Positions 36,501 through 39,500 of a DNA stretch of 64,000 bases are shown piece by piece. This DNA is from Escherichia coli (GTDB lineage: Bacteria > Pseudomonadota > Gammaproteobacteria > Enterobacterales > Enterobacteriaceae). Location of the stretch: the NCBI RefSeq assembly GCF_050920415.1, contig NZ_CP169309.1; one strand, 5' to 3'. A program made the position numbers. Position 1 is the stretch's first letter, and every line of letters starts with the position of its first letter.

Positions 36501-39500
36501 CGACCATAGTCGAAAGTACCATTCTGACCAAAACCTAAACCTGCGAATGCCAGACGGGTAGCAGAGTTATCGCCATCGCCTTCTGTGCCATTTGCCTGCA
36601 GGTTGTATTCCCACTGACCGTAACCAGTGAATTGATCAGCGATCTGAGTTTCACCTTTGAAACCGATACGAGCATATGACATATCGCCATCAGCGCCCGA
36701 GTTGTCAGAGAAGTAGTGCAGACCTGCTACTTTTCCGTAGAAATCCAGTTTATTACCATCTTTATTATAGACTTCAGCCGCATTTGCTGCGCCAGCAACT
36801 AATAACGCCGGGACCAGCATTGCCAGAACTTTTCTTTTCATTATGTATTCCCTTGTGATTATAATCTTCATGAATATATCAATAAGTGCCGTTATCCAAA
36901 AAAAAGCACATTTGGATACTATTCTATGAAGTTCATTTTATTTTAAGGATTACATGTAACAAATGTATTTAAAAGATTTCAAAATGTTTCCAATCTATTT
37001 AATATAATTCAGAATTATGAATTATAGATATATACATTCATGAAAATTATGAATATATATCAATATGTTATGATTTGATTGAAAAGATAGGAAGTGTCAA
37101 TGATTGTTGCGCCAGACGGCCTATGTGATCGCGCGCACATTAATGAAGGCATAAAAAAAGCCGGCTTCATGCCGGCCCAAAAAATATAAACAAGACGATA
37201 AAAGGCTAATAACGGGGTTATCATGACACAGAAATCTAAAAAGGTATAATTGTATTCAGTGCTAATGTATTGTTTGGGTGAATTAATAAAACCATTATCC
37301 AAGATAAAAATAAATCTTTATTGCTGTTTTTCCGGTAATTATTGCCGTTGCGCAAAAACTATCTATTTGCTCAAAAAATGGTTGAGTCTTGACTGACTCA
37401 TCCAATGTGGAAAAATGTGACTTTTATCACATAATAGTACTAAGTCTGAATTTTCCGGGTTATCTTAAAATGGAATACGGTTCGACAAAGATGGAAGAGA
37501 GACTCTCTCGCAGCCCTAGCGGCAAATTGGCCTTGTGGGCTTTCTATACATGGTGTGGCTATTTCGTCTGGGCAATGGCGCGATACATCTGGGTGATGAG
37601 CCGGATCCCCGATGCCCCCGTGTCGGGATTTGAAAGTGATTTAGGATCTACTGCGGGGAAGTGGTTAGGAGCATTGGTCGGATTTCTGTTTATGGCCCTG
37701 GTTGGTGCCTTGCTAGGCGGCATTGCCTGGTACACCCGACCTCGTCCCGCACGTAGCAGACGCTATGAATAAAAACTGCTAAGGTTGCGACTCTTTGGCA
37801 ACGGAGCGCGTATGGATTTACAACACTGGCAGGCACAGTTCGAAAACTGGTTGAAAAACCATCATCAACATCAGGACGCGGCACATGACCTGTGTCATTT
37901 TCGCCGCGTCTGGGCTACGGCACAGAAACTGGCGGCAGATGACGACGTTGATATGCTGGTGATTTTAACCGCCTGTTATTTTCACGATATCGTGAGCCTG
38001 GCGAAAAATCATCCGCAACGGCAGCGTTCTTCAATACTGGCAGCAGAAGAGACGCGTCGCCTGCTGCGTGAAGAATTCGCGCAATTTCCAGCGGAAAAAA
38101 TCGAGGCTGTTTGCCATGCCATTGCCGCACACAGTTTTAGCGCGCAAATCGCCCCTTTAACGGCGGAAGCTAAAATCGTTCAGGATGCGGATCGGCTGGA
38201 AGCTCTGGGGGCGATTGGCCTGGCGCGTGTGTTTGCCGTTTCGGGGGCGTTGGGCGTGGCATTGTTTGATGGCGAAGATCCGTTCGCGCAGCATCGCCCA
38301 CTTGATGATAAACGTTACGCGCTGGATCATTTTCAGACTAAGTTGCTGAAGCTACCGCACACCATGCAAACCATAAAAGGCAAACAACTGGCGCAGTACA
38401 ACGCGCAATTTTTAGTCGAGTTTATGGCGAAGCTCAGTGCCGAGCTGGCGGGGGAGAATGAAGGTATCGATCACAAGGTGATTGATACGTTTTCACCGGT
38501 TGGCTGAGCGCGTGGCCCTAAATGATGGTAATTATGTTAACCTGTCGACCATCTCAGATGGCCGGTTAAATCTATGCAGGAAAATATATCAGTAACCGAT
38601 TCATACAGCACCGGGAATGCCGCACAGGCAATGCTGGAGCAACTGCTGCAAATTTATGATGTCAAAACGCTGGTGGCGCAGCTTAATGGTGTGGGTGAGA
38701 ATCACTGGAGCGCGGCAATTTTAAAACGTGCGCTGGCGAATGACTCAGCATGGCACCGTTTAAGTGAGAAAGAGTTCGCCCATCTGCAAACGTTGTTACC
38801 CATTCCACCGGCACATCATCCGCATTATGCGTTTCGCTTTATCGATCTATTTGCCGGGATTGGTGGTATTCGTCGCGGTTTTGAATCGATTGGTGGGCAG
38901 TGCGTGTTTACCAGCGAATGGAACAAACATGCGGTACGCACTTATAAAGCCAACTATTATTGCGACCCGGCGGTGCATCACTTTAATGAAGATATTCGCG
39001 ACATCACTCTCAGCCACAAAGAGGGTATAGGTGATGACGCGGCGGCGGAACATATCCGTCAACATATTCCTGAGCACGATGTTTTACTGGCCGGTTTTCC
39101 TTGTCAGCCGTTTTCTCTGGCTGGCGTATCGAAAAAGAACTCACTCGGACGAGCGCACGGTTTTGCCTGTGATACCCAGGGCACGCTGTTCTTCGATGTG
39201 GTGCGTATTATCGACGCGCGTCGCCCGGCGATTTTTGTGCTCGAAAACGTCAAAAACCTGAAAAGCCACGACCAGGGGAAAACGTTCCGTATCATCATGC
39301 AGACGTTGGACGAACTGGGCTATGACGTGGCAGATGCAGAAGATAATGGCCCGGACGATCCGAAAATCATTGACGGTAAACATTTCCTTCCGCAGCACCG
39401 TGAACGCATCGTGCTGGTGGGTTTTCGTCGCGACCTGAATCTGAAAGCCGATTTTACCCTGCGTGAGATCAGCGAATGTTTCCCTGCACAGCGAGTGACA

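What the first reader, a model, noticed from the sequence alone, without database searches (positions are those of the whole stretch)
37152..37176. Minus-strand terminator-like hairpin in the yedS-yedR divergent region
A perfect 6-bp GC stem (GCCGGC-ttcat-GCCGGC) is flanked by an A7 run on the plus strand, giving a hairpin followed by T7 on the minus strand, ~290 bp upstream of the yedS start and far from any annotated gene end. It could terminate a short unannotated transcript originating near the yedR promoter or act as an attenuator for yedS.
Basis: seen in the sequence. Interest (0 to 1): 0.3.

Follow-up and report, generated by a model that had tools for sequence, protein, structure and literature searches.

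The report
Terminator of the known sRNA RseX
The hairpin is real, but it is the ordinary transcription terminator and Hfq-binding 3' end of RseX, a small regulatory RNA of Escherichia coli described in 2006, so it is already known.

Summary
On the minus strand, a GCCGGC-AUGAA-GCCGGC hairpin (8 pairs counting two G-U) is followed by U7. It is the only site of that quality in the 64-kb window, and none appeared in 40 shuffles.

It is not an orphan. It forms the 3' end of rseX (window 37242->37153, minus strand). The region matches Rfam RF01401 over the full model (99.3 bits; gathering score 50). It aligns base for base with the K-12 ncRNA rseX (b4603), in the same position between drpB/yedR and yedS.

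Published work shows RseX is a ~91-nt, Hfq-dependent sRNA with a sigma-70 promoter and a Rho-independent terminator. H-NS silences it. It represses ompA, ompC, fimB, ihfB and fepA, and fepA repression needs the loop of this terminator.

The six G-C pairs are invariant in 17 Escherichia alleles, and rseX is present in 4,879 of 5,426 complete E. coli genomes. The yedS-attenuator guess has no support.

Small points: the window carries a rare loop allele (AUGAA instead of AUGAU, 2 of 4,879 genomes). PGAP-annotated RefSeq records leave rseX unannotated.

Verdict: already known, low interest.

The parts
37153..37242 (-). rseX gene (RseX sRNA, 90 nt in this allele; 91 nt in K-12)
   Evidence: Rfam RF01401 match over model positions 1-94 of 94, 99.3 bits against a gathering score of 50, E = 3.7e-14. 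It aligns onto K-12 ncRNA rseX b4603, 2033649..2033739.
37158..37178 (-). Terminator hairpin: GG+GCCGGC (37178-37171), loop AUGAA (37170-37166), GCCGGC+UU (37165-37158)
   Evidence: -14.2 kcal/mol, z about -3.1 to -3.4. The six G-C pairs are invariant in 17 of 17 Escherichia alleles.
37153..37159 (-). U7 tail (T-run): termination point and 3' poly(U) of the Hfq-binding module
   Evidence: The T-run is 6-8 long across alleles. Terminators of Hfq-binding sRNAs carry 7 or more T (PMC5558911).
37179..37184 (-). U6 run directly upstream of the hairpin (RseX nt 59-64), the internal U-rich part of the 3' module
   Evidence: It is 5-6 U in all 17 alleles. Its role in Hfq binding is inferred from general knowledge of Hfq-binding modules and was not tested here.
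37179..37209 (-). Single-stranded linker, RseX nt 34-64 (UUAGCCUUUUAUCGUCUUGUUUAUAUUUUUU), identical to K-12; presumed main target-pairing region
   Evidence: It is unpaired in the Rfam consensus and in the fold and shows low diversity (pi 0.065-0.078). The predicted ompA site lies in an internal region of RseX according to PMC8313858. My own duplex predictions were not better than shuffles.
37205..37229 (-). 5' stem-loop of RseX (nt 14-38); the loop is variable between alleles
   Evidence: Rfam consensus structure. Pairs are 97-98% kept but show no compensatory changes. The loop differs from K-12 at 4 positions.
37249..37254 (-). Presumed rseX -10 hexamer TACAAT, ending 6 nt before the start at 37242
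   Evidence: Read from the sequence. It scores 4-5 of 6 in 15 of the 16 alleles that cover it (3 of 6 in P276M), while the -35 is poor (0-3 of 6; 1 of 6 in the window). A sigma-70 promoter and 5' RACE start are reported for K-12 (PMC8313858).
35648..36841 (-). Context: yedS, an intact OmpC-like porin gene downstream of rseX on the same strand (pseudogene in K-12)
   Evidence: ORF. PGAP calls it 'porin OmpC' in the near-identical genome. K-12 has the pseudogene b4496.
37470..37772 (+). Context: drpB (yedR), transcribed divergently from rseX
   Evidence: [quoted passage not shown]

Best explanation
The hairpin plus T-run is the Rho-independent terminator of the small-RNA gene rseX. Once transcribed, it is also the 3' Hfq-binding module of the RseX sRNA. 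Transcription starts at 37242 on the minus strand from a weak sigma-70 promoter (-10 TACAAT) that H-NS/StpA silence. RNA polymerase transcribes a 5' stem-loop and a U-rich single-stranded linker, then the GGGCCGGC-AUGAA-GCCGGCUU hairpin forms, and the transcript is released within the U7 tract, giving a ~90-nt RNA. The U6 run before the hairpin, the hairpin and the 3' oligo-U are the features that Hfq-dependent sRNAs use to load onto Hfq. Hfq-bound RseX then represses ompA, ompC, fimB and ihfB. In a separate pathway the loop of this terminator is needed for Hfq- and RNase E-dependent repression of fepA. Shown here: the identity, position, structure potential, conservation and distribution of the element. 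Taken from published K-12 experiments: expression, Hfq dependence and targets. Inferred: that this allele, 8 substitutions and 1 indel away from K-12, behaves the same way.
For: Identity: the region matches Rfam rseX over the full model, 99.3 bits against a gathering score of 50. K-12 annotates ncRNA rseX b4603 between drpB and yedS, and the alignment places its 3' end on the last T of this T-run.

The hairpin: it scores best of the 11 terminator-like sites in the 4.5-kb scan, is unique in 64 kb with 0 in 40 shuffles, and folds at -14.2 kcal/mol in both the MFE and centroid structures.

Conservation: the stem is invariant in 17 of 17 alleles from E. coli, E. albertii, E. whittamii and cryptic clades. 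The hairpin plus tail is the least variable segment of the sRNA (pi 0.043, against 0.11-0.20 in the 5' part and the downstream flank). rseX is present in 4,879 of 5,426 complete E. coli genomes.

Literature: RseX has a sigma-70 promoter and a Rho-independent terminator and is produced as a ~91-nt primary transcript. It becomes detectable when hns is deleted and represses ompA/ompC in an Hfq-dependent manner, as well as fimB and ihfB (PMC8313858). The last 40 nt (RseX+52) are sufficient for fepA repression, and mutations in the terminator loop strongly impair it (PMC11979758). Terminators of Hfq-binding sRNAs have 7 or more T and a hairpin of moderate strength (PMC5558911).
Against: No expression data exist for this strain, and RseX is undetectable in wild-type K-12. 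The rseX -35 is very poor in this allele (1 of 6). There is no covariation in either helix, so structure support rests on conservation and thermodynamics only. My duplex predictions against ompA, ompC and yedS were not distinguishable from shuffled sRNA. One loop base differs from the allele that was tested experimentally.
Confidence: 0.95

Rival explanations
1. Leaky terminator acting as a gate or attenuator for yedS. Transcripts from the rseX promoter read through the hairpin at a regulated rate and continue 311 nt into the intact porin gene yedS. RseX and yedS would then form one H-NS-silenced unit. This could hold in addition to the sRNA role.
For: rseX and yedS are on the same strand and in tandem, with no other terminator-like site between them in the scan. 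yedS is intact here. RNA-seq in hns mutants shows that 'RseX and surrounding areas' are up. [quoted passage not shown]
Against: There is no antiterminator alternative in the fold and no cis-regulatory Rfam match. The stem with 6 G-C pairs plus U7 looks like an efficient terminator. The first 200 bp after it are poorly conserved (pi 0.09-0.20), whereas the ~110 bp next to yedS are highly conserved (pi 0.03) and contain their own promoter-like site at 36962->36935. Readthrough sRNA products do not bind Hfq.
Confidence: 0.08
2. Chance GC-rich palindrome next to an A/T run in an AT-rich spacer, with no function.
For: The spacer is AT-rich (GC 0.21-0.38), so T-runs are common. No compensatory changes support the stem.
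Against: There were 0 such sites in 40 shuffles of the whole window. The stem is invariant across the genus while the flanks vary. The whole 90 nt match the Rfam model. There is published experimental work on the K-12 orthologue.
Confidence: 0.01
3. Part of a protein-coding ORF (minus-strand 80-aa ORF 37302->37060, or plus-strand 31-aa ORF 37094-37189), or a dispersed REP-like palindrome or protein-binding site.
For: The mechanical ORF list contains both ORFs. The element is a perfect palindrome.
Against: Both T-runs inside the ORFs vary in length between strains (U-tail 6, 7 or 8; upstream run 5 or 6), which would shift the reading frame. Neither PGAP nor the K-12 annotation calls a CDS here. 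The palindrome is single-copy in the window, and the one near-match is imperfect and lacks a T-run.
Confidence: 0.01

Closest known systems
RseX sRNA of E. coli K-12 (rseX, b4603; Rfam RF01401)
   Same: Same locus (between drpB/yedR and yedS, same strand as yedS) and same length within 1 nt. The linker and terminator stem are identical, and the Rfam model matches in full.
   Different: It differs from K-12 by 8 substitutions and 1 indel: nt 7-9, four bases of the 5' stem-loop loop, terminator-loop U77 to A, and U7 instead of U8. The -35 is weaker (1 of 6 against 3 of 6). The downstream yedS is intact here but a pseudogene in K-12.
Terminators of other Hfq-binding sRNAs (SgrS, RyhB; Morita et al. 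2015, 2017)
   Same: GC-rich hairpin of moderate stability followed by 7 or more T, preceded by a U-rich stretch.
   Different: Termination position, readthrough and Hfq binding have been measured for SgrS and RyhB but not for this element.
SdsR and ArrS terminator loops (Solchaga Flores et al. 2024)
   Same: In that study, RseX was one of three sRNAs whose terminator loop is required to repress fepA through the far-upstream 5' UTR, in a manner dependent on Hfq and RNase E.
   Different: The window allele has AUGAA where the tested K-12 RNA has AUGAU. In K-12, A73-U77 can close a UGA triloop; here the loop stays 5 nt. Whether this matters is unknown.
DsrA terminator in the same window (45578-45664, +)
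   Same: It is the only other hairpin-plus-T-run of comparable quality in the window, and it also forms the 3' end of an Hfq-binding sRNA.
   Different: It belongs to an unrelated sRNA family and has a different stem and loop.

Membership tests
RseX sRNA (Rfam RF01401) | Match to the family covariance model above the curated gathering score, over the whole model | tested here: met
   99.3 bits against a gathering score of 50, model positions 1-94 of 94, E = 3.7e-14. The whole-window gathering scan finds it again.
RseX sRNA (Rfam RF01401) | Orthologous position: between drpB/yedR and yedS, on the yedS strand | tested here: met
   K-12 annotation, three-way alignment of the spacer and the same gene neighbours in 9 further E. 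coli genomes.
RseX sRNA (Rfam RF01401) | Own sigma-70 promoter giving a primary transcript of about 91 nt | tested here: inconclusive
   The -10 TACAAT is at the right distance and scores 4-5 of 6 in 15 of the 16 alleles that cover it, but the -35 is 1 of 6 here and the consensus scan did not call the site. Expression cannot be tested with these tools.
RseX sRNA (Rfam RF01401) | [quoted passage not shown] | not testable with these tools
   Known for K-12 only (PMC8313858). My duplex predictions were not better than shuffles.
Intrinsic (Rho-independent) terminator | GC-rich stem, short loop, U-tract immediately after the stem, on the transcribed strand | tested here: met
   8 pairs (6 G-C), a 5-nt loop and U7 beginning within the last two stem pairs.
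Intrinsic (Rho-independent) terminator | Transcript 3' ends map in the U-tract | not testable with these tools
   The K-12 annotated 3' end is the last T of the run. The literature search found no paper holding both 'RseX' and 'Term-seq'.
Bidirectional terminator | U-tract after the hairpin on both strands, between convergent genes | tested here: not met
   On the + strand the hairpin is followed by CCAAAAAA, and no + strand gene ends here.
Transcription attenuator or riboswitch leader of yedS | Alternative antiterminator pairing that competes with the terminator, or a match to a known cis-regulatory RNA family | tested here: not met
   The terminator is present in both the MFE and centroid folds of the full RNA with no competing helix. 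The E-value-mode Rfam scan found only rseX plus two sub-threshold sRNA hits.
Transcription attenuator or riboswitch leader of yedS | Lies inside the 5' UTR of the regulated gene's own transcript | not testable with these tools
   The yedS transcription start is unknown. A conserved block and a promoter-like site lie close to yedS, downstream of the hairpin.

The most novel reading that the evidence does not exclude
In strains where yedS is intact, as here, the rseX terminator might work as a tunable gate within one H-NS-silenced 'porin-swap' unit. When silencing is lifted, terminated transcripts would give RseX, which lowers OmpC and OmpA. Readthrough transcripts would help express the alternative porin YedS. 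The rare terminator-loop allele U77A (2 of 4,879 genomes) could also change the loop-dependent repression of fepA.
Probability: 0.1. Interest if true: 0.35.

Novelty: already known. Interest (0 to 1): 0.08.

Why it matters
It matters little as a discovery. The element is the terminator of an sRNA that was predicted in 2002, named in 2006 and studied again in 2021 and 2024.

There are three modest practical points. First, PGAP-annotated RefSeq E. coli genomes leave rseX unannotated (every row shows 'none' under the match), so sequence-only readers will keep rediscovering it. Second, the yedS-yedR spacer is used as a host-source biomarker locus without mention of rseX (PMC11267920), although part of its variation lies inside this sRNA gene. 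Third, natural variation in the terminator loop and in T-run length (6-8) offers ready-made alleles for testing the recently proposed regulatory role of terminator loops.

Tried and rejected
1. RNA-RNA duplex prediction of RseX (window and K-12 alleles) against the ompA, ompC and yedS leaders. Full-length duplexes ignored intramolecular structure and had z-scores between -1.2 and +0.2. Restricting to the linker or the 5' end against -45..+25 gave nothing better than shuffles (best result ompA, z = -1.4, 8.6% of shuffles as good; yedS z = +0.5). I therefore make no computational claim about targets, and there is no sign that RseX pairs with its neighbour yedS.

2. Covariation tests of the Rfam structure and of the window's MFE structure on 17 alleles found no pair with changes on both sides, and the shuffle controls were identical. 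This is uninformative rather than negative.

3. The original paper (Douchin et al. 2006, PubMed 16513633) is not held. The supplements of the 2024 NAR paper are not held either, so the exact loop mutations they tested are unknown to me.

4. The literature search for RseX together with Term-seq returned 0 papers.

5. The near-match palindrome at 21650-21666 has the same loop as K-12 RseX, but it is imperfect and lacks a T-run, so I rejected it as chance.

6. The three non-Escherichia hits of the core-motif scan (Woesearchaeota, Bacteroidales and Clostridiaceae MAGs) gave no Rfam rseX match and are chance.

7. The near-consensus + strand promoter-like site inside rseX was considered as the drpB promoter. 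I rejected that because the drpB promoter was located experimentally about 160-220 bp further on.

Full report
**Observation.** On the + strand there is A7 (37153-37159), GCCGGC (37160-37165), TTCAT (37166-37170) and GCCGGC (37171-37176), followed by CCAAAAAA. Position 37152 is a T, so the stated start is one base early.

On the minus strand this reads UAUAUUUUUU-GG-GCCGGC-AUGAA-GCCGGC-UUUUUUU. Two flanking G-U pairs extend the stem to 8 pairs. The 41-nt 3' segment folds at -14.2 kcal/mol, against -6.3 +/- 2.3 for dinucleotide shuffles (z = -3.4).

A custom scan of both strands of the whole window looked for six perfect G-C pairs, a 3-8 nt loop and a run of at least seven T. It found only this site, and none in 40 shuffles. 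Relaxing the criteria adds only the DsrA terminator at 45641. The palindrome is single-copy in the window.

**What it is.** An Rfam scan of 36500-37900 gives a full-length match to RF01401, 'rseX Hfq binding RNA', on the minus strand at 37242->37153. The score is 99.3 bits against a gathering score of 50, with E = 3.7e-14. The hairpin and U-run form the last 26 nt of the model.

The K-12 MG1655 reference annotates ncRNA rseX (b4603) at 2033649..2033739. It lies between drpB (formerly yedR) and the yedS pseudogene, on the yedS strand. Aligning the K-12 spacer with the window puts the K-12 5' end on 37242 and its 3' end on the last T of this T-run.

The window allele differs from K-12 by 8 substitutions and one indel: nt 7-9, four loop bases of the 5' stem-loop, one base of the terminator loop, and U7 instead of U8. 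The linker (nt 34-64) and the terminator stem are identical.

The nearest complete genome (strain MFDS1022581, 99.8% over 651 bp) was annotated by PGAP and has no feature here. That explains why the element looked 'far from any annotated gene end'.

**What is known about it.** RseX was predicted in 2002 from its sigma-70-like promoter and Rho-independent terminator. In 2006 it was isolated as a multicopy suppressor of rseP essentiality. It is a ~91-nt primary transcript that represses ompA and ompC in an Hfq-dependent way (as summarised in PMC8313858, and PMC7648144).

RseX is not detectable in wild-type K-12 but appears in hns mutants, more strongly in hns stpA. It also represses fimB and ihfB.

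A 2024 study concerns this hairpin most directly. It showed that the last 40 nt of RseX (RseX+52) are sufficient to repress fepA 23-fold. Mutating exposed bases of the terminator loop strongly impairs that repression without lowering RNA levels. The effect needs Hfq and RNase E and apparently involves no base-pairing with fepA (PMC11979758).

More generally, terminators of Hfq-binding sRNAs share a run of seven or more T and a hairpin of moderate strength. These ensure termination late in the T-run, which is needed for Hfq binding (PMC5558911). Such terminators are often read through, and the readthrough products do not bind Hfq (PMC4509938).

The window element has all of these sequence features: U6 before the hairpin, a hairpin at -14.2 kcal/mol, and U7.

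**Conservation and distribution.** A 121-nt query covering rseX finds a match in 4,879 of 5,426 complete E. coli genomes, nearly always one copy on the chromosome.

A scan of one genome per species (GTDB) with a conserved core motif returned nine loci. Six are Escherichia: E. coli, E. albertii, E. whittamii and two unnamed clades. All six pass the Rfam rseX threshold at 86.7-95.2 bits. The three non-Escherichia hits do not pass. Because the scan needed an exact motif, diverged homologues elsewhere cannot be excluded.

In an alignment of 17 alleles, the GCCGGC/GCCGGC stem is invariant. The T-tail is 6-8 long and the upstream U-run is 5-6 long. There are no compensatory changes in either helix, so covariation says nothing for or against the structure.

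Pairwise diversity is lowest in the hairpin plus tail (0.043). It is higher in the linker (0.065-0.078), in the 5' part and stem-loop 1 (0.11-0.15), in the promoter (0.085-0.17) and in the 100 bp after the terminator (0.11-0.20). The genomes were chosen to span the range of identity, so only the relative values are meaningful.

**Mechanism.** The best-supported account has five steps.

1. A weak promoter (-10 TACAAT at 37254->37249; -35 only 1 of 6 here) sits in an AT-rich spacer (GC 0.21-0.38) that H-NS/StpA silence (literature, K-12).
2. Transcription starts at 37242.
3. Intrinsic termination occurs in the U7 tract after the hairpin (structure shown here; the termination event is inferred).
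4. The U-run, hairpin and oligo-U act as the Hfq-binding module (inferred from sequence features and from published Hfq dependence).
5. RseX represses its targets through the single-stranded regions, and represses fepA through the terminator loop (literature).

I put 0.95 on the identification.

**Rivals.**

- **Attenuator or readthrough gate for yedS.** In its favour: rseX and yedS share a strand and are in tandem, no second terminator-like site lies between them, yedS is intact here, and sRNA terminators are known to be leaky. Against it: the fold shows no antiterminator, and no cis-regulatory family matches. The first 200 bp after the hairpin are poorly conserved. The ~110 bp adjoining yedS are very conserved (pi 0.03), even though the yedS coding sequence itself is highly polymorphic (pi 0.23). 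That conserved block contains a promoter-like site at 36962->36935. I give this about 0.08, as an additional role only.
- **Chance, a coding ORF or a dispersed palindrome.** These are effectively excluded.
- **Bidirectional terminator.** On the + strand the hairpin is followed by CCAAAAAA, so this does not apply.

**What led nowhere.** Duplex predictions of RseX against the ompA, ompC and yedS leaders were no better than shuffled controls. Target claims therefore rest on the literature only, and nothing suggests that RseX pairs with yedS.

**Minor points that are new to me.**

- **A rare terminator-loop allele.** The window's loop is AUGAA, whereas all 16 other aligned alleles have AUGAU. A 30-nt query insensitive to T-run length matches exactly in only 2 of 4,879 genomes (MFDS1022581 and 2017-02-2CC), and 4,386 genomes differ at one position. 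Two closely related haplotypes (2013C-4282, Z0117EC0005) carry AUGAU. The common allele can close an extra A-U pair around a UGA triloop (-14.6 kcal/mol). The window allele keeps a 5-nt loop (-14.2 kcal/mol). Given the 2024 result on the loop, this is a natural variant worth a single experiment. I do not know which loop bases were mutated in that study.
- **A conserved + strand promoter-like site.** ATGACA-16-TATAAT (37223-37250, 11 of 12 matches) lies inside rseX nt 1-20. Its -10 overlaps the rseX -10 by two bases. It scores 10-11 of 12 in all 16 alleles that cover it. It is not the mapped drpB promoter, which lies between GTG-1 (37407) and ATG-22 (37470). It may contribute to the conservation of rseX nt 14-20, or it may interfere with the rseX promoter. 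Neither idea was tested.

**Verdict.** The element is already known and the interest is low.

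Noticed in passing
window 37166-37170 (RseX nt 73-77): The terminator loop is AUGAA here, whereas 16 other aligned Escherichia alleles have AUGAU. The exact 30-mer with A occurs in only 2 of 4,879 complete E. coli genomes, and sibling haplotypes carry U. The loop of this terminator was reported in 2024 to be required for fepA repression.
   Followed up: partly
window 37223-37250 (+): A near-consensus sigma-70 site (ATGACA-16-TATAAT, 11 of 12 matches) lies antisense inside rseX nt 1-20 and overlaps the rseX -10. It is conserved at 10-11 of 12 in 16 of 16 alleles across the genus. It is not the experimentally located drpB promoter (37407-37470). It could be an unmapped upstream promoter or a source of promoter interference.
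   Followed up: partly
window 35648-36841 (-): yedS is an intact 397-aa OmpC-like porin gene here, whereas it is a pseudogene in K-12. Its coding sequence is very polymorphic between strains (pi about 0.23), while the 110 bp upstream of it are almost invariant (pi 0.03).
   Followed up: partly
window about 34750-35600: A remnant of an IS5-family transposase gene lies directly after the 3' end of yedS. PGAP marks it as a pseudogene with a frameshift and internal stop in the near-identical genome.
   Followed up: no
window 45578-45664 (+): The DsrA sRNA gene (Rfam RF00014, 102.9 bits). Its terminator at 45641 is the only other strong hairpin-plus-T-run in the window.
   Followed up: no
window 62702-62971 (+): Group II intron domains (RF02001 at 103.6 bits and RF01998 at 46.8 bits) near the end of the window suggest a mobile group II intron.
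   Followed up: no
window 21738-21867 (+); 22390-22462 (-); 23454-23540 (+): An EFASI RNA family match (RF02957, 90.1 bits) lies next to two tRNA genes. The same pair of tRNA scores (72.6 and 57.0 bits) appears about 5-6 kb from rseX in the Escherichia sp. E1V33 locus L010.
   Followed up: no
rseX locus in RefSeq E. coli genomes (e.g. L001 2791-2911): PGAP-annotated complete genomes show no feature at rseX: every listed row of three searches has 'none' under the match. Only the curated K-12 record names it. About 10% of complete E. coli genomes (547 of 5,426) have no match to rseX at all.
   Followed up: partly
L012 (E. coli P276M), rseX region: One strain carries a degraded rseX allele (80% identity). 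It has a 7-nt deletion in the linker, a 2-nt insertion in the 5' part and loss of the GGG before the stem, yet the GCCGGC-AUGAU-GCCGGC-U8 terminator is intact.
   Followed up: no
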